Assembly: GCF_009914755.1 (NCBI RefSeq)
Contig: NC_060936.1
Length of the DNA stretch: 64,000 bases
Source: the human T2T-CHM13v2.0 reference genome, Homo sapiens
Direction: 5' to 3' (one strand)
Part shown: positions 1 through 60,944 of the stretch, one piece after another
Layout: every line of letters begins with the position of its first letter
How positions within the stretch are numbered: position 1 is the stretch's first letter
Notes under the pieces: generated by a model
Databases searched by the model: none
The model's input: only the letters and a program-made list of their open reading frames with translations
What the model was told of the DNA's origin: nothing
Made by a program: the position numbers and the translations under genes

Positions 1-2027
1 GCCCCAATGATTCAATTACCTCCACCTGAGCCTGCCCTTAACACATGGGGATTATTACAATTCGAAGTAAGATGTGGGTGGGGACACAGCCAAACCATAT
101 CATCCCGCCCCCTCCCAAATCTCATGTCCTCACATTTCAAAACCAGTCATACCTTCCCAGCAGTCCCCCAAAGTCTTAAGTCATTTCAGCATTCACTCAA
201 AAGTCAACAGTTTAAAATCTCATCTGAGACAAGGCAAGTCTCTTCCACCTAGGAACCTGTAAAATTAAAAGCAATTTAGTTACTTTCCAGATACAGTGGC
301 AGTACAGGCATTGGGTAAATACACCCATTCCAAATGGGAGAAATTGCCCACAGCATGGGGCTACAGGCCCCATGCAGGTCCAAAATCCAATGGGGCAGTC
401 AAATCTTAAAGCTCCAAAATGATCTCTTTTGATTCCATGTCTCACATCTAGGTTATGCTGATGCAAAAGGTGGGCTGCCACAGCCCTGGGCAGCTCCGCC
501 TCTGTGGGTTTGCAAGGTACAACCTCCCTCTTGACTGCTTTCACAGGCTGGTGTTGAGTGTCTGCAGTTTTTCCAGGTACATGGTGCAAGTTGTTGGTGG
601 ATCCACCATTTTGGGGTGTAGAGGATGGTGACCCTCTTCTCACAGCTCCACTAGGCAGTGCCCAAGTGGGGACTCTGTGTGAGGTCTCCAACCCCACATT
701 TCCCTTCCACACTGCCTTAGCAGAAGTTCTCCATGAGGGCCCAGCCCCTGCAGCACACCTCTGCCTGGACATCCACGCATTTCCACACATTCTCTGAAAT
801 CTAGGTGGAGGTTCCCAAACCTCAATTATTGACTTCTGTGCACCTGCAGACTCAACACCACATGGAAGCTGCCAAAACTTGGGGCTTGTACCCCCTGAAG
901 CCATGACCTGAGCTGTACCTTGGCCCCTTTTAGCCATGGCTGGAGCAGCTGGGATGCAGGGCACTAAGTCCCTAGGCTGCACACAACAGGGCGGCCCTGG
1001 GGCCAGCCCCTGAAACCATTTTTTTCCTCCTAGGCCTCTGGGCCTGAGATGGGAGGGGCTGCTGCAAAGGTCTCTGACATGCCCCGAAGACGTTTTCCCC
1101 ATTGTCTTGGTGATTAACATTGGGCTTCTCATTACTTACGCAAATTTCTGTAGCAGGCTTGAATTTCTTCCCAGAAAATGGGTTTTTCTTTTTTACTGCA
1201 TTGTCAGGCTACAAATTTCCCAAACTTTTATTTTCTGCTTCCTCTTGAACCATTTTGCCACTTAAAAATTTCTTCTTCCAGATACCCTTAATCATCTCTC
1301 TCAAAGTTCCACAGAACTCTATTGCAGAGGCAAAATGCCACCAGTCTCTTCGCATAGCAAGAGTGACCTTTACTTCAGTTCCCAAAAGTTCCTCATCTTC
1401 ATCTGAGACCACCTCAACCCGGACCTTATTGTTCATATCGCTATCAGCATTTTGGTCAAAGCCATTCAACCAGTCTCTAGGAAGTTCCAAACTCTCCCAC
1501 ATCTTTTTGTCTTCTGAGTACTCCAAACCTCTAGGAAGTTCCAAACTTTGTCACATTTTCCTGTCTTCTTCTGAGCCCTCCAAACTGTTCCAACCTCTGC
1601 CTGTTACCCATTTCCAAAGTTGCTTCCACATTTTCGGTATCTTTACAGCAGTGCCCCACGACCTGGTACCAATTTATTATATTAGTCTGTTCTCACGTTG
1701 CTAATAGACATGCCTGTGACTGGGTAATTTATAAGGAAAAAGAAGTTTAATGGACTCACAGTTTCAGGTGGCTGAAGAGGCCTCACAGTTATGATGGAAG
1801 GTGAAGGAAGAACAAAGGCACATCTTACATGGTGGCGGGCAAGAGAAGTGTTGAGCAAAAGGGGGCAAAGTCCTTTATAAAACCATCAGATCTCGTGCGA
1901 ACTCACTCACTATTACAAGAACAACATGAAGGTAACCACCCCCACGATTCAATTACCTCTACCTGGACCTGCCCTTGACACATGGGGATTATTACAATTC
2001 AAGGTGAGATTTGGGTGGGGACACGGC
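1..2027 (-). mobile_element. THE1-type MaLR LTR retroelement (partial LTR 1-102, internal ~103-1678, LTR ~1679-2027)
   Basis: Both ends are the reverse complement of the THE1 LTR start (..gggacacagccaaaccatatca). The internal region translates to the MaLR ORF motifs WESLELPRD..GFDQNADSD and KKWF..PGPP. Subfamily not resolved. Confidence 0.85.
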
Positions 2028-2029
2028 CT

Positions 2030-3014
2030 TTCCATGAATGGAGAACTTACCATCAAGAACTTACCATGAATGAAGCTTGCAGGACTGGAAGTTGCTCTGG
2101 GTGAGTCAATGTGTGAGTGGTGAGTGAATGTGAAGGCCTAGGATATTACCGTACATTACAGTAGACTTTATAGACACTGTATGCTTAGGTTACATTAAGC
2201 TTATTTAAAAAATTATCTTTTCTCAGTAATCAATCGACCTTAGCCTACTATGAATTTTTTTATTGATCATTTTTTAAACTTTTTGACTCTTTTGTAGTAA
2301 CACTTAGGCTAAAACACAAACACATTGTACAGCTGTCCAAAAATATTTTCTTTCTTGATATCCTTACTCTATAAGTTTTTCTTTTATAAAAATTTTTATT
2401 GTTTAATTTTTTTTATTTTTTAAACTTTTTTGTTAAGAACTAAGACACAAGCACACGCATTAGCCTAGGTCTACACAGTGTCAGGGTCACAAATATCACT
2501 GTCTTCCACCTCCACATCTTGTCCCACTGCAAGGTCTTTGGGGGCAATTACAAGCATGGAACTGCCATCTCCTAGGATAACTGCGCTCTTCTGGAATACC
2601 TCTTGAAAGACCTGCCTGAGGTCTTTTTACAATGAATTTCTTTTTTTTAAATAAGCAGAAGTTACACTTAACTTTCTTTTTATAAGTAGAAGTATACTTT
2701 AAGATACTGATAAGAAGTATAGTAAATACATAGAAGTATAGTAAATACATATACCAGTAACAGTTGTTTGTTATTATCAAATATTATGTGTTATAAAAAA
2801 CTGTGTGCACTATAGTTTTATACAACTGATAATGCAGTAGGCTTGCTTCCACCAGCATCATCACAAACAGGTGAGTGATGCATTGTCCTATGATGTTAGG
2901 ATGGCTGCAATGTCACTAGGCAACAGGAATTTTCTGTTTCATTATAATCTTATGGGACCACTGTTGTGTATGCAATCTGTCATTTACAAAAATGTCATTA
3001 TGTGGCACATGACA
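2030..3014 (-). mobile_element. Tigger3-family DNA transposon fragment
   Basis: Internal motif agaacttaccatgaatgaagcttgcaggactggaagttgctctgggtgagt and terminal sequence attataatcttatgggaccac..gtggcacatgac resemble recalled Tigger3/MER7 consensus. Confidence 0.7.
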
Positions 3015-3264
3015 ATAATTATATTTGTAGTTTTAAATTTTTCATGAGATGTAACTAGTTTGGACTTTTATTTTTATTGATTTGCTCTTTCAGTCTTCAT
3101 GTGACTTTCTCAGCTAGGAAAATTTTTTTCTACTAATCTTTCATTTTTGCTTCTGTGCCAAATTGTCTGTATGTTGGCTGCCCATTCTCTGTTCCTTTCT
3201 GTTATTGCATTACAATTTTTATGCTATGTTCTTTCCCACTGCATTCTAGAAACATATTTATTAT

Positions 3265-3505
3265 AATAATAACTAGCATTAATTTTGAGCATTTACTAAA
3301 TGACCTTTTCATATTTTGATGCTGTCTTCATGAGAACCCAAAAAGTGAGCTCTATTACCATTTCTAATTTATACACGAGGAAACTGAGGCCAGATTAGAC
3401 TGAGTAATTTTCCCAGGTTTATGTGACTAGGAAGTGACACAGTCACGATTTTAACCCAAGCAGGCTGGCTTTGAATTGTTGACTTGTAATCAACATTCCA
3501 CTGCA
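3265..3505 (-). mobile_element. MIR SINE
   Basis: MIR core gaggaaactgaggc with flanking degenerate MIR sequence. Confidence 0.65.
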
Positions 3506-4759
3506 TACTGTCTGTCCTACATATTTACATAGTCCACAACACATGCTATTTGATTTTCTGGTGAATATTTTTTGCCTCTTTCTGCCTCTACTGTGGATTT
3601 CAGTTGTGCTTTTCTAGTTGTACTTTCCATAAAAGCTTTCTTGTTTGATCCAATTCTACTTTTATATCATAATGTTCTCTTCTGCAGACTTTGTGCTACT
3701 CATTCACAATGCCTGCTATTCATTCTTAATCTTAATTAACTTCTTCTTCTGTTGATGTCACTAAGTACTTTCTGATAGCATCCCCACCCTGGGCTCCTTG
3801 ATTTTTTCTGTATCTTAAACTTTGGTTTTCTCAGGGGAGTCTTTAACTGTCTTCTTCCTTTCTTGTCTAACTTACACACTGGGGTTTATTTCATTCACTG
3901 CTACGGCTTTAAGCACCTATACATTTGTGACTCAAAAGTAAATATTTCACCCCAAGCCGAATCCTGAGCTACACAGCAGTATATTTATTCCTGTAATGTT
4001 GGTTGAACACCTATTTTCCAGGTGCATGTGAGACACTAGAAAATTCCACATGACTGTTATCCAGCAACCTTAAGCTTTTCTCCAAATCTGCTTTTTTATT
4101 CTTTTGATTACCCATCTTGGTGAATTCTAATGTTGCTAGTTGTATAAACCAAAATATAAAATTAATCCCAGAAAACTCTATTTACTTGCCTTTTCATTCT
4201 GTCATCTTTATTCTACTTCTGGAATATCTCATTTAGTATTTCTCTTCATTTGAATTATCACTGTGTATTTCTTGGGGGAATTGCAGTAGTCTACTTTGTT
4301 CTCAACAGTCATAAAAGTCATCTTTCAAATGTGGCGCTCTAATGAGCTTACTCTTTGTGTGATATATGTTAATTATCTCCCATTCCATAAAGTATAATTA
4401 ATACCACCACCTTTGCATGGCACACACAACTTTTGTCATCTGGTTTTATCATTTGGTCCCTGCCTACATATCCAGTCTTTTCTCCTTTCACTTCAAATCT
4501 TTTCTAACTTAAGACACTGTAATTCAGAAATACTGAACTATATTCAAGGTCTCAAATATGATATGTCCTTTCACTCTTTTTGTTCCTTTACACATTTCCT
4601 GAAATACACTCATCATTCAGCTATCTACCTGATGTTTAACTGTTAATTTATTACTTCTTTGGAAATGCCATGTTCTTTATGAAATTTTCTCTGATTTCCA
4701 CAGGCAGACGTGAATGCTCCATTTACTGCTGATGATTTGAATTTGTATGTACTGGCCTA

Positions 4760-4987
4760 ATGGCACTAATCCCATTCAGGAGGACTCCACCTTTGTGATC
4801 TAATCACTTACCAAAGGTTTCACCTCCTAGTACCATCATATTGGGGTAGTATTTTAACATAAGAATTTTGAAAGGACAGCAACAGTGAGCCATGAACACA
4901 ATGCTGCACTTCAGTCGCCAGCCTCCTGGGCAACAGAGTGAGACCTTGTCTCAATAAATAAATAAATAAATAAATAAAATAAAAAAT
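4760..4987. mobile_element. MaLR LTR fragment followed by Alu 3' fragment with (TAAA)n tail
   Basis: ctaatcacttaccaaagg..taccatcatattgggg (MST/MLT1A-like), then cctgggcaacagagtgagaccttgtctc plus an A-rich tail. Confidence 0.6.
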
Positions 4988-7210
4988 AGTGACTAGTCCT
5001 ATAAAATAAGGAGTCATGAAAATAAGGAGTTGTGCTTCCCAGTCTTCTTGTTTTCTTAACCTCTAGTCATCTAAGCAGCACACATAAAGTTTTGCATTCC
5101 ATCCCAACAAGGAGTCTACTGCAAGAATGATTCCTGTAGATGTGACAGTTGAAATGATGAAAATGATTGATATCTATAAGGTCAAAGTTAGAAACTTGAA
5201 GGGTCAGCTGGAAATTGCATTCATTTTGTTGCATTTCTAACTACTGGCAACTTAACCAATTATTTTTGTCTAAGCAACAAGATGTCCCAAGCCAGGGCTG
5301 GTATGGAAGTTTAGTTATGCTATCAGGAATTAGGGATCTTTCTATCTTCATTTCTACCATACAAAACGTGTTGATATTCACCATCATCTTGTGGTCCCAT
5401 ATTGCAAGATGGCCGTTAAGATTTAAGATAGTGTGTCTGCATTTCAGACAGTGAGAAACAAAAATAAAAATGGTAAATGGTCAAATATTATGCCACAGGT
5501 ATCTGCTCTTCCTCCACTCCCCACCCGAATGTAAAGTGGCTCTCAGGAGCACCATCCAGTAGACTTCAACCAACATCTAGCTTTCTGGAATTACACCACA
5601 TTGTCACCCCCAGCAGCAAAAGAATCTGAAAATAAATATTTATAAACAGGAAATGTTGCCACCCTGATCAGTATTGGGTTTCTGCAAAGAAAATGGTAAA
5701 AATTAATACGGGGTAAGTAGACAGTGGTACCTGCCCCATCTTGTAGGTAATAATTTAAAAATGAATATTCAGTAAAGCAGACACAAAAAAGATGTAAAAA
5801 TAATCAAGAGATTTCAGTGTTACAGAAGTCAGAAGAAAAAAAACTGTAAGAGGGAAGAAATATATAGTAATATACAAAATTTTAAAGAGGTTAAGGACAA
5901 AAAGTCTAAGAAAATATTACTAAGTTTGATGATCAGAGACAAGCTGCGACCTCCAGGGAGAGTAATTTCAGGACACTCTTTTAAAAGTGAGCAATTGTTT
6001 TAGTAAGAGCAATGGGTAACTCAATAGGTTAGGAAAGTTAGAAAGTTTATGGAAGACTTTTTTTTAGGCTAACGGAAACTTGAGAATTTTTTGGCTATAG
6101 GTAGCAGAATTAGTGAAGATTGAAGATGTAAAGAAGGGAACACAAAATTGTAAAAACAAAATACGAAATTTTCATCCAGAGGAAAAAGAATCCTTTCTTT
6201 CATTACCTATATTTTAAAGAGATAGTTGGACACAGTGATTCTATTCCAATGAGTCTCAACTTATTTTTTTTTTAACATGCTAGTTATAGATCACTTAGTG
6301 CCTGAGCACATTCAGGGATAAGAAACTAATTATCCCCAGATAACTCAATCAATCGTTTCAAGTTTTAATAACTCTAAGAAATTTATTTTAATATTATTCT
6401 AAAGTAATTAAAATTATTTAAGATAAAAATAAATTTAAAATTCAAAATTATTTAAGATAAATAATTATACAAATTATTTTATACTATCAACAAATTATCC
6501 TCCTTTTAAAATCAATTGCTCTTTTTGTATCTTCCAGAACTACACAAACAGGATTACTGTTTGTTCTATGTAACTAGGTAGAACTATCATGCTTACTCAC
6601 ATTCTTCTCTTTCCAAGCTGAACACTCTTAATTCACTCAGTGATTCTTGAATGATATTGTTTTCCAACCCACTGATTATTCTGATTATGTTTAGTGTTAA
6701 GATTGCACAGTCCATTCAAATCATGAACTCAAGCACATTCTGAATAGCTATAGTTTTCTGAGTCTGAAGTTGATTTTAGTCTCTTACTGGCAATTGCTTT
6801 CATTTATCCAAGCCATGTTACATAACTTATGCTAATCTTTCTCAAGGCCTTATTGTTCTTTCATCTTGTGATTACATTTCTGTCATTTTAGCCTTTGATT
6901 TCCTGATGATTCTGTTGGCTCATTCTATAGGAAAGGGACCAGAAGTAATTGATGTTTGGACAGCTTGAACCATGTTGAATATGGTAACAGAAAAGAGAAC
7001 CATAGTTCTGAGTGGAATGTTAATTAATGAAAGACAATTATTAATACGTATAAGTAATAGTTGAGGAGGATGAACAATTGTTTTCAGGAACCTTACTAAA
7101 TTTATGGTTTTCCTCTGAGGAGCTTGACCAGCCCTTTAAACCAACTCAGCAAGTCTGAATGATGTGCAAAGGGACAATTAGATATGGGTAAGAAGTCCCC
7201 AACCTCAACC

Positions 7211-7345
7211 CATAAAGGACTGTGTCTGAGGTTCTTACAGCATCAAGGGAGATGGATACCATGGCTTCCATCAAGGTGCTGCTAGTCCTGCTCTCAAAGG
7301 CTTTGGTGACCCTGAGCTCTGCTCAGAGCATAGATGATGGCAAGA
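7211..7345 (+). pseudogene. PRP/PRR4-family exon 1 homologue (signal-peptide exon) with degenerate TATA box; relic or unannotated gene
   Basis: 7276-7339 aligns ungapped to the PRR4 exon 1 CDS (58530-58467) at 50/64 nt and 14/21 aa (VLLVLLSKALVTLSSAQSIDD). Same 64-nt length and same phase-1 end. Donor is GC (7340), start codon GTG, CATAAA at 7211. In-frame ATGs at 7252 and 7261. Confidence 0.85.
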
Positions 7346-8284
7346 GGAGGAAATGGGGACAATACAATGGATAACGGGGTTAAAATGCATGGAAAGTACT
7401 AGAGTTAGATTGACCCTTTCAGAAATTAAGCACTTTATTTTCAGAGAGTAGGTCAATAAAAGAGGAGGAAACCTTAATTTCTATTTTTCACTGATTGCAG
7501 ATACTTCTCTGAAAATCTCGGCCTAAGTCTTAAGTCAACGTCTTCATGATGTAATTTTGCCGTTCTAATGTATATGGATTTTCAGTTGTTGATTCTGTTT
7601 GTGTGAATCAGGGCATCTAAATTGAACGGAAAATCTATATTTTTCATTTCTATAATCTATAATAGAATTCTATAATTCTATAATTCATCTAGATATCGCA
7701 TTTCCTTGACATCAAACTCTTGAACATTTAAAAATATTGATAATTTTGATTAAATTTGTACTTAATCAAAATTTTGATGCTAAGCAGGCACTATTAAATT
7801 CTTTCTATTCCATTCCTTAATCCTTTAAAATACAGGTCACCCCTCATTCAGAGTCAATGATTGGGACTAGGGTTCTACTTTGGGAAACTTTGGTTTATTG
7901 TATCCAAATCTTTATAATTTTTTTTCCCTAAAGCTCTCTTAGGCATTTTTAAATCTCTTGTGTCTAAACCTAAGTGTCTTTCTAGAAATTCACAGCTGGG
8001 GTTTTATCAAATCATGTTTTAAATTTGTCTTCTTTTTCATTTTTTTTTTTCTCTTAAAATCCTAAGTACTGTTGCTGAAGAGTTCTTTCAAGAGTAAGGT
8101 AAACCTTTATTCAGGGATGTGTTCTTTTCTTTGTTCTTCAGAAGCTACCATAGTTTTCTTTTTTGTTTAATAAACATTCTCAAAATTCTCAAACATTCTC
8201 AAAATTGAGTTTAGGGAGTCCCAAAGGGAAAAAGAGAATTACAAAATCTGAAAGTTTTAGTGGTTCTCAATAATAACATTGATT

Positions 8285-8568
<284 letters not shown>

Positions 8569-10694
8569 CAATAATGTTAAATATGGACCATCTCCTTCAT
8601 TTTCACATTAGAATCTCTTGTGTCAGAGTTGTAATTAGCATTTGAACATCAGCAGAATATAGACACAGTACTTATTTGTAAATGCTTTTCTCTAAATCTT
8701 TCTACAACCAATGGCTAATGATTGAATAACACAAATCTCCCATTTTTGCAAGAGCAATAACTCCCTTGACATATAACTAATTTGAAGCATAAAGATACAT
8801 AAAATTTGCCTACATTATTGTAGTCAATCAGTGAATGTATCATTGCACTTTCTTTTGCCACTCTGAATTAAAACACAAATGCTTCATTCTTTAGTTTTCA
8901 AGTCCTGATAACTGCTTAAACACTAATTTGTCACAGAGTAAGTGAAATTTAAAGCCACCATTAGTCACACACAGTTTACATGAAAAATTTGAAGTCCATT
9001 CTAATGGCCTGGGGAGAGACTCTGTGTAGGAGGAAGGATATAATACATGCCCAGAGTACATGAGAGAGCTAATGAATTATGCCACCAAAGAAGTGGCAGA
9101 ATTGAGTAAGTGAGTCAACCAACAATTTTGTTGTTCAAAGAAAACTTTTATGCTTAATGATTTTTTTCCCCTGTTTCTGACTTGTCAATGACCCTTCTAC
9201 TGAGTTTATGATGTCATTTCAAACTTCATTCTTTTTCTCTTCTTTCTTTGAAGGAGGCTTTCAAGAGGAAGATGAAAAGACCTAACTACCATGTGAGCTA
9301 TTTTGAGTTCAATTAAGTTATTAAGAATTGTTCTAAATGGATTCAACGAACCTCTGGGTTACTGTTCTAATAAAACATTTCTACAAGTTTTTACTGTAAT
9401 ACAAATAATCATGTTTAACCATGAAAACTTTTTTTCTCTCTTTATTTACAAATATTTTCTTTTTTGTACACAAAGTTCCTGGCTACTCTAGGCTGGTTAG
9501 TACAGGGTTGATCACCCTAAAATATCTTTGCCACAATATGAATGATGTGCTTTTGATGGTATGTCCCAGATACATATTTCCTTTTGTGGCCTGACATATG
9601 GCATTGTCTGGAGAATATTCAATATATGCTTGAAAAGAGAATGTGTTGTCTCTTCCTTTTATGGAATCTTTCATAAATATCAGATCAGGTTGCTTGATAG
9701 TGTTTGTTAATGTATTCTATATTCTTACAGATGTTCTGTTGTTCAACAAATTACTGAAATAGAATCATTGAACCCTTTAAAAAAAGATGTCTTATATACA
9801 ATCCAAACAATATTTCTCTGGGATGTAGAGATGATCTACATTGAGGCAATATATCCTTTGAGAGTTTTGACATTTTAGCATAACCATGTATTAGCTTTTG
9901 ATTGAATGTCTTGTCACAGCATCTTGATAATCATTGCCTGGTGCAGTCCGTGGACATACGTCTTTTGTGGAGAAATTTTCTTCAATAAATAATTAATAGT
10001 TCAATTTAGGCTTCTTATTTTATAGACATTTTCTACATAATTTTTCTCACTTTTACTTATAGATTGTCCTTCATTCATTGATCTGCAATTCTCAAATAAT
10101 CTTTGAACTTACTGTGACAATATATTTAGCCATAATATATACCTTTTCTGTGATTATAAGATTATTCATAGAATTCCACAGCATTTATTAAGAACTGTCA
10201 CTTTATTGAGTCTTTCCCAAAAGTAGAGCTTTGTTGGATGATCCAAGAGGAACCATCTAACGCGGACTATGAGAAGGAACTAGTTGCTTTTCATAAAGAT
10301 GCAAATAACAGCAAGATGCTGTTACAGTTGTTTTGAATTAGTCACACAACTTTGCATCTGGAAACACGGTTTAGAACTATGAAAATGCCCTCTACTCTTG
10401 ATAGTTGATATTAGGATATTAATTTCTATTTGCTCTGAAACATGTTTTAAAAAACAGCAACTCTAAAGAAAGGAAGAGTTACAGAAGAGAGAAACAGGGA
10501 TACACAGACAGAGTCAGAAACAGAGACAGAGATAAAGAGATCCAGCCAGCTGTACATAAGATTCCCTACATTACAATTACAGATACACTAATTAAGTTTT
10601 AGGAGTAATTAATCACATAAAACATTAATGCAAGAACTGAAGTTAATTTAGAAACATCTTATCTTTGTTTGTCCTAGAAAAGCATAGTTTCTCT

Positions 10695-11651
10695 TCAGAT
10701 TTGTTTATGTTGTTGGAATTTTCTTCCTTTTAGAATAGACATTACTTTCCAAATCACCTTTAGAGATGCATGTCTTAATTTATTGTTCCCCAGTATTAGG
10801 ATAAATGAATGACTTGAGGGGTAGATTAGAGCTATGGACTCACCAAAAATCACAGCTAATTCCGTCTCTGGCATAAAGTAGCTGGAGGTGGCAATGAGAA
10901 AGGACAAATAGTAGGCAATAAAGAGGAGAAGGAAGGAAATGACAGCTTTCAGGGCTCTCACATGGGCTTCTGTGCTGGGGTCTCTGCACCCTGTGGCACT
11001 GAGCTGCATTCGCCTGATATGTCTCCGCAGGGAGAGGATCAAGAGGAAAAAGGACATTAGGCACACACAAAAGGGGAGCAGCGTTGCCAGGTTGAGAAAT
11101 AACTTGGTAGAAGCATGTTGAGTTTTATTTACTCTGCAACTCCAAGTTAAGTTTGTTTTCCTCTTTGCCTTCACACAAAACCTGAAATCAGCGTTCAAAT
11201 TCTCAGTGGCTGGAAGGCTAATAAACACAGAGAGAACCACGCACCCCAGTAGAATCCAGGAAATCACCCTGTCAATTCTCCACTTCATCCAGAGGAAAAG
11301 TGGGTGAAAGAAATTACCTATCTTGAAGAAATAGTAAATGCTGAGGCAGGTTGCAAACCAGATACTTAAATGATTGGTTAGTGTCCAGAAGAAGTCAATG
11401 ATTCTCATTTCTTTACCAGTGGCATAGACATCTGGATATAGCACCAATATAAAACAATCTAATAGTATTACGCACAATAGACAAATTCTGGATATGGCCA
11501 GACTTGTGAGGATTAAATCAATGGAGGCAATTTTCCTCTTCTTGACCCAGTCCATGCAGTTTACCAATCCAATGAATGCATTCCCTAAGATCCCCACTGA
11601 AAACTCTCCAACTGCTAAGAACAATAAAGTAGTCTGCACTTTATCTGCCAT
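10695..11651 (-). CDS. TAS2R7: Taste receptor type 2 member 7 (bitter GPCR), 318 aa, intronless
   Basis: Intact [20 protein letters not shown].. with TAS2R motifs [50 protein letters not shown]. Confidence 0.98.
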
Positions 11652-11935
11652 GTTTAAATATGCAATTAGTTTCTAGTTGACCTGATGGAGTTTGACATCC
11701 ACACCTGCTTCTTAGATTTTGATGTAGTTTTCTTTACCTCTTTGTTGTAGTCTGTTTTGTGATGGAGACTGGAATGATAAATGAAGACTGGAGCTATCTT
11801 CATTAAATCCTAATTAGTCTTGACAAACAATGTGTTTGGCGATCCTTGGCCTGGCCACTGTATGCCCATTTACCTACTCAGCAGGTTGTAATTTTCCACA
11901 TACGGTTAATTTAGGCTGAGCTACTGTTTACTAAG

Positions 11936-11943
11936 ATGCAAAT
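11936..11943 (+). promoter_or_regulatory. POU octamer ATGCAAAT, 285 bp upstream of TAS2R7 ATG
   Basis: Exact octamer, positionally conserved upstream of all four intact TAS2Rs. Function inferred. Confidence 0.6.
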
Positions 11944-12039
11944 TGGGCCAATTCCCTTTCATGGTCCTGCATTGTCTTTCTGAGGCTAAGGTGTACGCAT
12001 TTTGGATTCATTAATTTGTGATGTATGCTAGTAACCTCA

Positions 12040-12207
12040 ATAGGGTTGCTAGATTTAGCGACTAAAAATTCAGGACACTCAGTTAAACTTGAATTACAGG
12101 TAAAAAAATCAATAATTTTTTAGTGTATGTCCCTGATTACTTAAGATCAGTGCTTTCAGGAAGTACTGAAGTTCAAATTAGATTGAGTGTTCCATTCTGG
12201 CAACCTG
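12040..12207. mobile_element. MER53-like palindromic MITE
   Basis: Inverted termini tagggttgctaga.. / ..tctggcaacctg, and an internal caggacactcagttaaacttgaatt arm; right arm degenerate. Confidence 0.7.
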
Positions 12208-13154
12208 AACATCAAGAATTTGGTAGCAAGTATAAAACTGGTAAAATTGGAAAGTTCTTGAAGAATTTTTATTTTGCTGAATGTTAATATTGATAATTAG
12301 TAAAGAATCCAAAGTTTGGTTCCATAGTGAGAGTTATATATTTTCAGGAACTTTAAAAAGTTAACACTAAATGTAGGTTATTTGATTCCAAAGAAACTTT
12401 AGGTCATTATTTTGGCTGTTCAGATGAACAATTACATGGCATAGTGTCTCTTAATACAACACATTGTCTTACTGACTAAATGACTTTTAATGGTTATTTA
12501 GCAATGTTATATATAATAAGGTAGAGGACCTGTAATAAAAAAAGACTATTGATTACCTTAAATTTTTCATTTTCACTTAAAATGTTCTCAAGGAAACTTT
12601 GAGAGGTATTAGATATGTCCATTACCTTGTTTGTGGTGAAGATATCATGGGTGTTTGAAATTTTATACATTAAATATATGCGGTTCTTTTTATACCAATT
12701 ATACTTTCATAAAGATTTCAAAAATTTAAAAAATGTTCTCAAGGGTAGTTGTATGCATGAGAGAGGAGATAGTAAAATTCTGTATTTCATTCTCTCCACT
12801 GTCCTCCATACAAATTGCATGAGTATCTAGATCCTCAACCCTTCTAGCAGGAGACTGAAGATTAAACTTTCCACATCTCTAGAGATGAATTTTTAGTTTG
12901 AAATAGCTTCTCTAATTTAGAGTTACTGAGAAGCGCTTTACTACATGGGGTTCCATAGAATAGTTCTTGGGTATTCACACCTTCCTGGGAATGCATGTCT
13001 TCTCTTATCCTTCCTTAAAGGACAAACCATCATTCCGGAGATGTAGCCTTAACTTTTGGACAATCTGTATGATTATGTAGCCATGTTCACAGGCAACTGG
13101 AACATCACCTATGATAGGACGATCTTGGATATGATCCCTGACCTAGACTTATCA

Positions 13155-57500: not shown

Positions 57501-58466
57501 CTAGGAAAAGAAGCACAGGATGAAGTGAACATTACCTCATAAATCTTTCAGGGCTCATAGTGGTCTATAGGGAAAGGGGTCTTCTGGCCACACCCTGTGC
57601 ATCCCCTAAGTTACCTCATCAACCATGTTCTGTGAAGCTGCTGGAAGGGGAGGAAGATGTTAGGGGAGGCAGGATTGTTACTATCGCTGAGCATCAACCA
57701 CGAATTCAATAGAAGAGTCCCTTTTTGTCATCCTTAGGATCCCTCAAACCCTAATGCTAATTTAGGCACACTTCTCTGGGTATTTTCATGTCATATTTTA
57801 GATCTTTACCTTCTTCCTTCTTTAAATATTTTGATCATATTCACAAGCTTGCCCAAGAGGAGCAACCAGGAGTAAATATTTGGATATAATCTTACACATA
57901 CTGCCTGCAACATATTGAAATTTTAAATGTGATTGGAAGAAAAATGGGAATTTGGGGACCTGATATTTCTATACCACTATGTAGAAAGACACAAATGTAT
58001 TATCCAGTCCTCTATGTCTGACAGTACTCTGATGTTTGTTTATCTCTTTCATTGATTCTGCATCCCCTGTACAGCAAGGACACCATCATCGCTGTCCACT
58101 GAGATTACTGTAGCATCTTCATAGCTGGACTTCCCTGGATCAGTCTTGCATTCTCCACTGCATCCTTCACAGCACAGCCAGGTCTTTCTAAAAATACAAA
58201 TCTTACTTTGTCATTCCTCTAATTGAAATTCTCTATTGGGTTCCAAGTGTATATCAAATAAAGTATAAGGCCTTGGCATGGAATGAGGGCACAACAGATG
58301 TCATCCTTGGAATGAGAGCTCCAAAGCCCTACCCTTCTTCTCAACCTCCTTCCTCCCCTCCTGCTCTTCCGCTGCAGTGGTGTAGGGTGAACCCCTGAGG
58401 CCCTAGAAGAGTCATGGCCCCTCATCCCACTCCCCATCTCCTTTTTTAAAAAAATAATTTTTTTAC

Positions 58467-58530
58467 CATTATCTGTGCTCTGAGCTGAGCTCAGAGCCAG
58501 AAGGACCACTGAGAGCAGGACCAGCAGCAT
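58467..58530 (-). CDS. PRR4: PRR4 exon 1 coding part (signal peptide MLLVLLSVVLLALSSA-QSTDN)
   Basis: ATG at 58530, GT donor at 58466; joins in frame to exons 2-3 to give the lacrimal proline-rich protein. Confidence 0.96.
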
Positions 58531-58589
58531 CTTGAAGGAGGCTCTGGAGTTGCTCCCAACTCTGCGTTGAGAGAAACATGGCAGCTCCC

Positions 58590-58595
58590 TTTATA
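58590..58595 (-). promoter_or_regulatory. PRR4: PRR4 TATA box (TATAAAGGG)
   Basis: TATAAA about 60 bp upstream of the ATG, consistent with a short 5' UTR. Confidence 0.8.
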
Positions 58596-60944
58596 AACAT
58601 GAGCAGAACAATGGCACCTTTGAGCTCCATACTGGGTGGACCTCACCACCTGAAAGATTAGGTTTTGCTTTCCTCTCATAAAGTTGAATGCGTCTCTTAT
58701 TACTTTTTGGGATTTTAGCCCAGCAGGATGTGGTGGTAGGATGTGGTTAGGTACAAACTGTGACTTGAGCATAGTTTCTGAAGAAACAGTATCCAAGCAA
58801 TCAGCACAAATACTACAATTGAAGTTTGGTCATCATTTGATTTTCAATTGGGTTAGACAGTTAGTCTTTCCCCTTCATTGGTTGTCTGTGTGCACACGTG
58901 CTTACGTTTGTATATGTTTGTCAGCAGTGATCTTATAGCCAGAAGTGAAAATGATTAATATCTCTAGCTATTAGTGTAGCATAAATTCCATTTTTATAGC
59001 GTATATACCTATATGGATGATATGTAGCTTAATTTCATAATAATATAGAGATCATTTCTGTTTAATGTTGAGTTGTGTGAGGACAACACACACTTGGGCA
59101 CACGTGGATGACAGAAGTTTTACCCTCAGGCTACTCTGGCCCAAAGAGATTAAGATTCTCCTAATCTAGCATTAACCAGAGATACTTTATTGTTGTAGAA
59201 CACAGGTATTAAAACATTCTATCTTTATTAATATCCTGGAGGTTAGTAAGGCAAAATTGGCCACAGAAAGCACCATTAGATTTCTGCATCAGAACAGTGT
59301 GAATACACAGTTCCTTGAACAAGCCATGCTATTTTATGTCCCTAAGACTTCTTCCATGATCTTTCTCTTTTCTAGAATGTTCTATATGATTCAGTTTAGG
59401 TCTTACTTCTTGTACCAAATATTTTAATCACACTGGTTATTGAGTGGACACAATAATACAATCTAATTAGATAGTATGATAGCCTGTTGAAAGCCTCAAG
59501 TATTACATTGATTTTCTATTTTTTAATTAGTTTCCATTCTATTTGCTTCTCAGATTGCCTTTACCAAAGATTATTTTCTCTGCAATATTCTTATACTCAT
59601 TCTTCTTCACTCTTGTGCTGAACCTTACTTGTTGATATGTTATATTGTGAATCAATCCTCCCTATGTCTATGTTTTATATCTTACTGCTTTCTTCATGCG
59701 TTCTGGGAGAAATCTTTATTTGATTTTCTAAACAAGGTTCTGTACTTCTCTTTGCTTGCTTTCTTCTTTTTTGTTTTTAAAATTTGGCACCAAGGTTTTG
59801 TGTTTCTGAAAAGTTTGGTAGGGTCCTGAGTTGGTAGCTTAATCTTCACCTGCTGATTTTTCTGTCCTATCTAGTAGTTTTCTGCTTATATTTTCATGGA
59901 ACCCCTAGATCAATCAGTATCACCAGCTGCCACTTTTCATTACAGGCGTTGTATAGGTCTCGTATTATTGTTACATTTTTGTACAGGGCTGGTGATAATT
60001 TGAGGATAGCTTGGTTGGAAGTATGACAGGGTCGGGGGAATGTGACTGGAAATCTTAAAGACAGGCCTCTTGACCATTGTGGATAAGTGGATCCTGTGCT
60101 GTGCAGATGAAGGTCTGGTCTGGCAATTCTGAAGGGTTGGAGGTAATATTACAGGAAGATTTTCTAATCAATGGTGTTTGTTATGGATAACTTTACTTTG
60201 GCAAAGTGACCAAAAAATAAATATTTTCTCTGGCATAATTATGGACATATTTTGAAGGTGAAATATATTATGAGTTAGCAATTCTTCTCTATGTGGGAAG
60301 CAGAAGAGTTCTAGCTGTGCTTTAGGGTTTTATGGGTGAGAGAGAGTAGTTGTTTGGGCCTACAGACCCAGCTGTGTTACTAGGATTGCTGCCTCTGATT
60401 TCACCAGACACTGTTTAACATGGGAAGTGGAGATAAGTAGTTCTGCCTAGGTGGCTTATGGTAGACCATCAGGTAGGAAAGGAAGGTCAGCGAGAAGGAG
60501 CAGAGGGGCGTGCCATGCAGACATGATTCACTGTGTGGGTGGCTTAGGAAACTGCAGTCCTGGTGGAAGGCAGGCTTCTCCTTGGCTGGTGAGTGCAGGA
60601 AGACAACAGGTGATGCCTGCAAATATCACTCAGCTCAGACCCTTACCCTGACATTCTCCAGTGTAAGCAATGAGAGAAAGAGATTAATGTATCAGGAAAT
60701 AATAAACATCAGCTATGATCTCACCACACACAACCACAACAGAGGTGACGGAGGAGCTGAAGCAGACACTGTCAGTGAGTGAGGGTGGGGTCAAATCGAG
60801 AAGCAGGACTGCAGCAGGAGCTTAGGCACTTGTAGGTGAGTGGACACTCTCAGCAATCCACTTGCCTTTTACAACAGATGAAAACTTAACATACCCCTAA
60901 TATAATTCTTGATTTCTACTTCCTAAAACCTGCTCTCCTTCATA

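What the first reader, a model, noticed from the sequence alone, without database searches (positions are those of the whole stretch)
7211..7375. Hidden proline-rich-protein (PRR4-like) first exon on the + strand, opposite to the rest of the cluster
Seen in sequence: 7276-7339 is an ungapped 50/64-nt match to PRR4 exon 1 in this same window, with identical length and a phase-1 end. Homology extends upstream (CATAAAGG vs TATAAAGG; ..TTCCATCAAG vs ..TCCTTCAAG) and into the intron (AGGAAATGGGGA vs AGGAGATGGGGA). Four changes suggest decay: TATA>CATA, ATG>GTG, donor GT>GC, and a Lys in the hydrophobic core. Three of them are potentially tolerated: there are two in-frame strong-Kozak ATGs upstream (7252 gagATGg, 7261 accATGg), GC donors are legal, and CATAAA can act as a TATA box. 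This gives MDTMASIKVLLVLLSKALVTLSSA|QSIDD. The unspliced ORF is only about 40 aa, so the ORF track misses it. Inference: an unannotated PRP-family secretory gene or unitary pseudogene at the TAS2R7 edge of the cluster. I recall a PRP-like secreted gene in the syntenic mouse interval (5430401F13Rik), but this is unverified.
Basis: partly seen in the sequence, partly recalled or inferred. Interest (0 to 1): 0.85.

Follow-up and report, generated by a model that had tools for sequence, protein, structure and literature searches.

The report
Leftover first exon of lost salivary-type gene
This is a real but isolated first exon (promoter box, leader and signal peptide) of the salivary and lacrimal proline-rich-protein gene family, most likely the remnant of a secreted-protein gene that rodents and horses still have and humans have lost.

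Summary
Window 7276-7339 (+) matches the coding part of PRR4 exon 1 at 50 of 64 bases with no gaps. Blastn gives 79% over 80 nt, E about 1e-13. RefSeq annotates nothing here and the stretch is not repeat-masked.

It is not a copy of PRR4. In exon 1 it is about as far from PRR4 (50/64) as PRR4 is from the PRB genes (50-51/64). It lacks the promoter similarity shared by all seven annotated genes.

Its 5' leader and upstream ATG (7261) match a separate branch of Pfam family PF15240. These are secreted proteins with an acidic part and a Gly/Arg/Gln/Lys-rich part, predicted in chinchilla, mole-rat, hamster, deer mouse and donkey. The 60 nt before the canonical start, translated in frame, match the hamster protein at 9 of 20 residues. 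The seven human paralogues match at 3-5 of 20; 0 of 100000 permutations reach the observed score.

No exon 2, no exon 3 and no Gly-rich stretch was found downstream, in 132 kb around, or genome-wide.

The best reading is the relic of a unitary pseudogene. Expression could not be tested, and neither could synteny or the link to mouse 5430401F13Rik.

The parts
7211..7218 (+). TATA-like box CATAAAGG, at the same 65-nt distance from the canonical start position as TATAAAGG in PRR4
   Evidence: Its function was not tested.
7238..7339 (+). Predicted 102-nt counterpart of family exon 1 (38-nt leader plus 64-nt coding part). The start at 7238 is inferred from the 102-nt exon 1 shared by all 7 annotated family genes.
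   Evidence: 75-79% identity to exon 1 of PRR4 and PRB1-4 over 65-82 nt. Pfam PF15240 E 6e-4.
7216..7275 (+). Leader whose in-frame translation matches the N-terminal extension of hamster protein P0034 (9 of 20 identical), unlike any human paralogue (3-5 of 20)
7261..7263 (+). In-frame ATG (accATGg) five codons before the canonical start. A Met sits at this position in 4 of 5 related rodent/equid proteins. The 7 human paralogues have AGA here.
7252..7254 (+). Second in-frame ATG (gagATGg), further upstream. The hamster sequence has Arg at this position.
7276..7278 (+). GTG at the position of the family's canonical ATG
7297..7299 (+). AAG (Lys) inside the hydrophobic core of the signal peptide. 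Relatives have Met (3 of 5 subfamily proteins) or Val (2 of 5, and all 7 human paralogues).
7340..7341 (+). GC where all 7 paralogues have the GT splice donor. The context G|GCAAGA is otherwise like PRH1's G|GTAAGA.
7348..7359 (+). Short stretch of intron-1 homology (11 of 12 to PRR4 58442-58431, offset by a 16-nt indel)
7372..7374 (+). TAA that ends the unspliced reading frame (40 aa from ATG 7252, 37 aa from ATG 7261)
7455..7460 (+). AATAAA about 115 nt after the exon. It could end an unspliced transcript, but this is seen in sequence only and there is no evidence of use.

Best explanation
Window 7211-7360 (+) is the surviving 5' end of an old, separate member of the PF15240 family of salivary, lacrimal and nasal secreted proteins. 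It keeps a TATA-like box, leader, signal-peptide exon, donor position and the first bases of intron 1. Its lineage is not PRR4, PRB or PRH. It is a branch whose living members are secreted proteins with an acidic stretch followed by a Gly/Arg/Gln/Lys-rich tail. These are gene models in chinchilla, Damaraland mole-rat, Chinese hamster, deer mouse and donkey, and most of them start translation five codons upstream of the family's canonical Met. In the human lineage the coding body is gone or unrecognisable. What remains is a single exon carrying a GT-to-GC donor change, a lost canonical ATG and a Lys in the hydrophobic core. I read it as a non-functional relic of a unitary pseudogene. Shown: the homology, the affinity to this lineage, and the lack of any detectable downstream exon. 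Inferred: that the gene was once complete here, that it is orthologous to (and syntenic with) the rodent and equid genes, and that it is now silent.
For: (1) The homology is real; Pfam PF15240 E 6e-4 to profile positions 2-24. (2) It is not a PRR4 copy. Exon-1 coding identity is 50/64 to PRR4, 45-48/64 to the PRBs and 43-45/64 to the PRHs, while PRR4 against the PRBs is 50-51/64. In the 100 nt before the start of transcription, PRR4 against PRB/PRH is 77-87 of 95-100, but the candidate is only 36-39 of 80-85. Apart from an Alu, the 7264-7345 patch is the only part of 6000-10612 similar to any PRP locus. (3) Affinity to another branch. Hamster P0034 residues 71-120 align to 7216-7362 at 48% over 50 aa, E 3.3e-6. 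This is P0034's best hit in the window; PRR4 exon 1 scores E 0.002. For the 20 codons upstream of the canonical start, the candidate against P0034 gives 9/20 identical with BLOSUM score 37. The 7 human paralogues give 3-5/20 and scores of -5 to 7. 0 of 100000 permutations reach the observed score. A Met five codons upstream is present in 4 of 5 subfamily proteins. A profile of the 5 proteins ranks the candidate exon first in 132 kb (E 5.3e-6), above PRR4 exon 1 at 1.1e-5. (4) No gene body was found. Blastp of the 7 human family proteins against + strand frames 7300-10650 hits only exon 1. An exon-2 scan scores 24 at best, against 20 on the control strand and 29 by chance near PRR4; the true PRR4 exon 2 scores 61. 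The subfamily profile on window 1-13000 and on chr12:10596001-10728000, both strands, finds only exon 1; the body-only profile's best hit (E 1.6) resembles, as I recall it, the start of LINE-1 ORF1. Whole-genome six-frame searches with the donkey and deer-mouse proteins give nothing better than E 2.2. The downstream DNA is 24-51% G+C with no G-rich stretch. (5) No primate protein of this branch appeared among the 93 and 109 named candidates scored.
Against: Taken alone, the exon does not look dead. It has 29 open codons from ATG 7252 with no frameshift, and an ATG in a good context at the position rodents appear to use. The hamster protein also lacks the canonical Met. The box reads CATAAA, GC donors do occur, and AATAAA lies at 7455. 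pN/pS against the paralogues is 0.45-0.72, the same range as PRR4 against PRB1 and PRH1 (0.56-0.70), though on only 21 codons. Failure to find a body is weak evidence: these bodies are low-complexity and fast-evolving, and the probes come from rodents and a donkey. The genome-wide searches are not very sensitive; the PF15240 scan and the PRR4 exon-1 DNA search both missed the candidate itself. The rodent and equid proteins are automatic gene models. The leader comparison rests on a single predicted hamster isoform. Synteny, other primates' DNA and human RNA data could not be examined.
Confidence: 0.7

Rival explanations
1. Live first exon. A promoter at about 7211 drives a + strand transcript. 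It is either spliced from the GC donor to exons not recognisable by homology (for example in frame to a distant phase-1 acceptor such as PRH2 exon 2, about 132 kb downstream on the same strand), or unspliced and ended after AATAAA 7455, encoding a 37-40 aa pre-peptide.
For: The frame is open, the ATG at 7261 is in a good context and conserved in position, a TATA-like box sits at the family spacing, and the donor context is otherwise intact. pN/pS is no worse than between functional paralogues. Very long read-through transcripts are annotated in this cluster, namely PRH1-PRR4 and PRH1-TAS2R14.
Against: RefSeq has no transcript, CAGE cluster, promoter or enhancer feature at 1-12500. No downstream exon was found. 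A Lys interrupts the hydrophobic core that is unbroken in all 12 relatives compared. The family promoter similarity is absent. No primate gene model of this branch was returned.
Confidence: 0.1
2. A fragment derived from PRR4. It would be a partial duplication of PRR4 exon 1, or a short gene-conversion patch copied from PRR4 onto older unrelated or decayed sequence, and so not an independent old gene.
For: PRR4 is the closest human paralogue in the coding part (50/64), and pS to PRR4 is only 0.28. That is low for paralogues that, by my inference, split before the placental radiation. The similar patch is only about 80 nt long.
Against: The margin over the PRBs is 2-5 bases. The leader immediately next to the patch matches the hamster protein and not PRR4: 9/20 against 3/20. 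The upstream ATG is shared with the rodent proteins, where PRR4 has AGA. Position 9 is Ala, as in the subfamily and the PRB/PRH genes, not Val as in PRR4.
Confidence: 0.08
3. Chance resemblance between Leu-rich signal-peptide-like sequences.
For: Signal peptides are compositionally simple, and the Pfam score of 20.6 bits is below the 30-bit cut-off.
Against: The DNA-level E is about 1e-13. 0 of 100 shuffles match the 24-mer. Length, phase, TATA spacing and donor position are identical. It lies in the same gene cluster. The match to the hamster leader is an independent line of evidence.
Confidence: 0.01

Closest known systems
Human PRR4 (lacrimal proline-rich protein 4), exon 1, window 58467-58568 (-)
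   Same: The 64-nt coding part ends in phase 1. The TATA-type box is 65 nt before the start position. The signal peptide is 14 of 21 residues identical. PRR4 is the closest human paralogue in the coding part, at 50/64.
   Different: There is no promoter similarity (37/85, against 77-87 of 95-100 between PRR4 and PRB/PRH). The leader is different. It has an upstream ATG where PRR4 has AGA, GTG instead of ATG, and GC instead of GT. There is no exon 2, 3 or 4.
Rodent and equid Gly/Arg/Gln/Lys-rich branch of PF15240: P0024 (Chinchilla), P0026 (Fukomys), P0034 (Cricetulus), P0036 (Peromyscus), P0033 (Equus asinus). Their sources give them unrelated automatic names (GAR1-like, RsgI, IRS4-like, mesenchyme-specific glycoprotein-like).
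   Same: A Met five codons upstream of the canonical start (4 of 5). The leader matches P0034 at 9/20. The signal peptide is 48-59% identical over 22-27 aa (53-59% without P0026). The subfamily profile ranks this exon first in 132 kb.
   Different: Those are complete predicted proteins of 137-239 aa with an acidic region and a Gly/Arg-rich tail. The human locus has only exon 1, with a Lys where they have Met or Val. Synteny was not tested.
Mouse 5430401F13Rik
   Same: Its protein is listed among mouse salivary proteins (PMC4355469, passage seen). Its transcript is very abundant in young olfactory mucosa and falls to 0.031 of that level with age (PMC5880952, passage seen).
   Different: No tool showed me its sequence, and no Mus musculus protein of this branch appeared (length limits 76-241 aa). 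Identity with this branch is therefore unverified.
Rodent Glx-rich, SMR2 and androgen-repressed submandibular proteins (P0025, P0027-P0031)
   Same: They carry the same PF15240-type signal peptide on a body that is not proline-rich. This shows that the family's first exon is coupled to very different bodies.
   Different: Their N-terminus has no upstream Met and matches PRR4 exon 1 better than the candidate: 75% against 58% over 24 aa for P0025.

Membership tests
PF15240 (Pro-rich; salivary/lacrimal proline-rich protein family) | N-terminal signal peptide homologous to the family's exon 1 | tested here: met
   Pfam E 6e-4, residues 10-32 to profile positions 2-24. Blastn 75-79% to exon 1 of PRR4 and PRB1-4.
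PF15240 (Pro-rich; salivary/lacrimal proline-rich protein family) | Score above Pfam's gathering cut-off (30 bits) | tested here: not met
   20.6 bits. For comparison, PRR4 exon 1 alone gives 28.2 bits, and the exon 1 of PRH1, PRH2 and PRR4 give 26.8-28.1 bits. An exon 1 alone therefore often fails the cut-off (3 of 7).
PF15240 (Pro-rich; salivary/lacrimal proline-rich protein family) | Exon 1 architecture: 64 coding nt ending in phase 1, with a GT donor | tested here: inconclusive
   Length, phase and donor position are identical, but the donor dinucleotide is GC, against GT in 7 of 7 paralogues.
PF15240 (Pro-rich; salivary/lacrimal proline-rich protein family) | 36-nt acidic exon 2 and a long repetitive exon 3 | tested here: not met
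   Searches found nothing above background.
PF15240 (Pro-rich; salivary/lacrimal proline-rich protein family) | Location in the 12p13.2 TAS2R/PRP cluster | tested here: met
   chr12:10671211-10671375, 3.2 kb from TAS2R7 and 51 kb from PRR4.
Gly/Arg/Gln/Lys-rich rodent/equid branch of PF15240 | Start Met five codons upstream of the canonical Met, and a matching leader | tested here: met
   The leader comparison rests on one predicted hamster isoform.
Gly/Arg/Gln/Lys-rich rodent/equid branch of PF15240 | Acidic region followed by a Gly/Arg-rich tail | tested here: not met
Gly/Arg/Gln/Lys-rich rodent/equid branch of PF15240 | Conserved position between the YBX3 and TAS2R7 orthologues | not testable with these tools
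   No mammalian genomes other than this reference were available.
Unitary pseudogene | No intact copy elsewhere in the same genome | tested here: inconclusive
   Whole-genome six-frame searches with P0033 and P0036 gave nothing better than E 2.2. The sensitivity of these searches is limited (searches missed the candidate).
Unitary pseudogene | Intact orthologue in other species | tested here: inconclusive
   Complete predicted proteins exist in 5 species. Orthology is inferred from the leader and start codon only.
Unitary pseudogene | Disabling lesions | tested here: inconclusive
   The coding body was not found. Within exon 1, the changes GTG, GC and Lys each might be tolerated.
Recent duplicate of PRR4 | Homology extending into the flanks and other exons | tested here: not met

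The most novel reading that the evidence does not exclude
The exon is still in use. A gland-specific + strand transcript would start near 7238 and make a short secreted product from ATG 7261. This could happen through the GC donor spliced to unrecognised or distant in-phase exons, or as an unspliced roughly 240-nt RNA ended after AATAAA 7455. After signal-peptide cleavage the unspliced product would be a 16-residue peptide containing a Lys-Arg-Arg-Lys site. That would be a human-lineage rebuild of an old salivary/nasal secreted-protein gene, missing from current annotation.
Probability: 0.06. Interest if true: 0.6.

Novelty: new member of a known kind. Interest (0 to 1): 0.3.

Why it matters
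It adds an eighth, unannotated family element to the human TAS2R/PRP cluster. It also points to a whole branch of the PF15240 family that databases carry only under misleading automatic names: secreted proteins with an acidic part and a Gly/Arg-rich part. The human genome appears to have lost this branch. If synteny and primate comparisons confirm this, it is a datable loss of a secreted gland protein in the primate lineage. That is useful for studies of saliva, tear and nasal-secretion evolution, and for annotators. It does not change how the known genes are understood, and there is no evidence that it has a function today.

Tried and rejected
Whole-genome DNA search with 7100-7500 found only the region itself. 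PRR4 exon 1 as a DNA query found PRB1-4, but neither PRH1/2 nor the candidate. These searches are therefore too insensitive to count relics.

The PF15240 genome scan found exon 1 of the 7 annotated genes and missed the candidate.

A protein search with the PRR4 open frame, region 1-40, gave 19 of 19 candidates. All were PRR4-type, counting a pangolin SMIM10L1/PRR4-type fusion model.

The Atlas search with P0036 gave no usable hit.

Rfam on 5000-11000 gave only sub-threshold SRP-RNA and microRNA-family matches, all inside the masked repeat at 8264-8569 that I take for an Alu, and nothing at the exon.

Literature. The search '5430401F13Rik' found 4 papers with 3 listed; I read passages from two. 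'LOC102638913' found 1 paper. PRR4/PRH1/PRB1/pseudogene/TAS2R7 found 0 papers. 'unitary pseudogene' + salivary + proline-rich found 0 papers. Two further searches gave background listings only. I therefore found no paper describing this relic.

Rejected: chance similarity, and a recent PRR4 duplicate (see the rival explanations).

Considered but not tested: signal-peptide competence (no predictor available), donor strength (no splice model), and a cluster-wide scan for further relic exons.

Full report
**What is there.**
Window 7276-7339 on the + strand matches the coding part of PRR4 exon 1 (58530-58467, - strand) at 50 of 64 bases with no gaps. It has the same 64-nt length and ends in phase 1. 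Blastn extends the match to 7264-7343 at 78.75% over 80 nt. E is 1.2e-13 in a 5.6 x 6.5 kb comparison and 1.35e-12 against the PRB/PRH loci plus the rest of the window.

A 24-nt core with up to 3 mismatches finds only itself and PRR4 exon 1 in the window; 0 of 100 shuffles gave a match. Genome-wide it has 4 non-self matches, of which 2 are exon 1 of PRR4 and PRB3; the reversed control had 0.

- CATAAAGG at 7211, exactly 65 nt before position 7276, as in PRR4
- in-frame ATGs at 7252 and 7261
- GTG at the canonical start
- an AAG Lys codon at 7297-7299
- GC at the donor position (7340-7341)
- an 11-of-12 intron motif at 7348-7359
- a 40-aa unspliced frame ending at 7372-7374

RefSeq has no gene, transcript or regulatory feature here, and the stretch is not masked as a repeat.

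**Family membership.**
All seven annotated family genes (PRR4, PRH1, PRH2, PRB1-4) have a 102-nt exon 1 with a 38-nt leader and 64 coding nt. Their select transcripts have a 36-nt exon 2, and a few alternative PRB2/PRB3 models differ by a few bases. The candidate peptide matches the start of Pfam PF15240 (Pro-rich) at E 6e-4 and 20.6 bits. That is below the 30-bit cut-off, but PRR4 exon 1 alone reaches only 28.2 bits.

**It is not a copy of PRR4.**
Identities:

| Region | Candidate | Between annotated genes |
|---|---|---|
| 64 coding bases | 50 to PRR4, 45-48 to the PRBs, 43-45 to the PRHs | PRR4 to the PRBs 50-51; PRR4 to the PRHs 47-49 |
| 5' leader | 22-26 of 38 to the seven genes | PRR4 to the others 30-34 of 39 |
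| 100 nt before the transcription start | 36-39 of 80-85 to the seven genes | PRR4 to PRB/PRH 77-87 of 95-100 |

The candidate's promoter figure is about what an aligner gives for unrelated DNA. Apart from an Alu, the 80-nt patch is the only part of 6000-10612 similar to any PRP locus.

**The lineage it belongs to.**
Protein searches seeded with the candidate peptide (93 and 109 named candidates scored) returned a set of proteins I had not expected: P0024 (Chinchilla), P0026 (Fukomys), P0034 (Cricetulus), P0036 (Peromyscus) and P0033 (Equus asinus). All have a PRP-type signal peptide, then an acidic stretch, then a Gly/Arg/Gln/Lys-rich tail. All hit PF15240 at 16-43 bits, with the profile beginning at the canonical Met. 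Their database names are unrelated automatic labels.

Four lines of evidence tie the candidate to this set:
- Four of the five carry a Met five codons before the canonical Met, followed by Ala. This is exactly where the candidate has ATG 7261; the seven human genes have AGA there.
- The hamster protein, like the candidate, lacks the canonical Met.
- The hamster model is a long isoform that reads through its leader. Its residues 71-120 align to 7216-7362 at 48% over 50 aa, E 3.3e-6. This is its best hit in the window; PRR4 exon 1 reaches only E 0.002.
- For the 20 codons before the canonical start, the candidate matches the hamster at 9 of 20 (BLOSUM score 37). The seven human paralogues match at 3-5 of 20 (scores -5 to 7). 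0 of 100000 permutations reach the observed score.

A profile of the five proteins ranks the candidate exon first in 132 kb (E 5.3e-6), just above PRR4 exon 1 at 1.1e-5. The Lys codon AAG is one step from the ATG (Met) expected from 3 of the 5 proteins. This is an inference, since I could not see their DNA.

**No gene body.**
- Blastp of the seven human proteins against the + strand frames of 7300-10650 finds only exon 1.
- An exon-2 scan gave a top score of 24 with no splice sites. The control strand gave 20, the best chance hit in the PRR4 region gave 29, and the true PRR4 exon 2 gave 61.
- The subfamily profile on window 1-13000, and on chr12:10596001-10728000 (the interval from YBX3 to the window's end), both strands, finds only exon 1. 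The body-only profile's best hit (E 1.6) resembles, as I recall it, the start of LINE-1 ORF1.
- Whole-genome six-frame searches with the donkey and deer-mouse proteins gave nothing better than E 2.2.
- The DNA after the exon is 24-51% G+C with no G-rich stretch of the kind a Gly/Arg-rich exon would leave.

These negatives are limited. The probes are distant and low in complexity, and the genome-wide tools missed even the candidate exon.

**Interpretation.**
The most likely account (confidence about 0.7) is a relic. An old family member was once complete at this edge of the cluster. Its human remnant keeps the TATA-like box, leader, start codon, signal-peptide exon and the first bases of intron 1. 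Its body has been deleted or has decayed beyond recognition. No primate protein of this branch was returned, which fits a loss in primates but does not prove one.

**Evidence against a dead relic.**
The exon is intact as an open frame. It retains the start codon that rodents appear to use. Its pN/pS against the paralogues is 0.45-0.72, the same range as PRR4 against PRB1 and PRH1 (0.56-0.70), though on only 21 codons. AATAAA lies at 7455. A live first exon therefore keeps about 0.1.

**Other rivals.**
A short conversion patch from PRR4 keeps about 0.08. The low synonymous difference to PRR4 (pS 0.28) is otherwise hard to explain for such old paralogues. However, the neighbouring leader is like the hamster's, not like PRR4's. 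Chance is excluded.

**The mouse gene.**
I saw passages from two papers. One lists 5430401F13Rik (UniProt F7D4R8, a fragment) among mouse salivary proteins without annotation (PMC4355469). The other shows it as the transcript most reduced with age in olfactory mucosa, from 60835 to 1864 (PMC5880952). The remaining papers were seen only as search listings.

**Novelty and score.**
This is an unannotated remnant of a known family, and a pointer to a poorly named branch of that family. It is of modest interest to people who study secretions and gene loss, and there is no sign of present function. I rate it a new member of a known kind, interest 0.3.

Noticed in passing
window 58222-58530 (-): From the PRR4 start codon the frame stays open for 103 codons through exon 1 and into intron 1 (stop at 58219-58221). 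An unspliced PRR4 transcript would therefore encode a 103-aa protein with the normal signal peptide.
   Followed up: no
window 58569-58668 (-), and the same region of L001-L006: The 100 nt before the transcription start are more alike between PRR4 and PRB/PRH (77-87 of 95-100) than the exon-1 coding bases are (47-51 of 64). The promoter appears to be more constrained, or more homogenised, than the signal-peptide code.
   Followed up: partly
proteins P0024, P0026, P0033, P0034, P0036: Five predicted mammalian secreted proteins of one PF15240 branch carry unrelated automatic names: H/ACA ribonucleoprotein GAR1-like, anti-sigma-I factor RsgI, insulin receptor substrate 4-like, and mesenchyme-specific cell surface glycoprotein-like. 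My guess is that their Gly/Arg-rich tails cause this.
   Followed up: partly
protein P0017 (Manis pentadactyla); chr12:11040401-11040832, exons: A pangolin gene model fuses SMIM10L1 (PF15118) to a PRR4-type signal peptide and exon 2. In human, the long PRH1, PRH1-PRR4 and PRH1-TAS2R14 transcripts start next to SMIM10L1, but on the opposite strand.
   Followed up: no
window 8287-8567 (-): A masked repeat with similar copies elsewhere in the window and in the PRB loci. It matches SRP RNA below threshold (47 and 36 bits), and I take it for an Alu. It is the only masked repeat of 100 bases or more between the exon and TAS2R7.
   Followed up: yes
window 7640-7690 (+): A short run of imperfect TCTATAAT-like repeats about 300 nt after the exon.
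   Followed up: no
L009, chr12:10620335-10620538 (-), outside the window: An open frame that, as I recall it, resembles the start of LINE-1 ORF1. It was the best, and spurious, hit of the body-only profile.
   Followed up: partly
exon 1 coding bases of the candidate, PRR4, PRB1 and PRH1: Synonymous differences between these paralogues, which by inference are old, are low (pS 0.28-0.52). This could mean nucleotide-level constraint on exon 1 or gene conversion within the cluster. It remains unexplained.
   Followed up: partly
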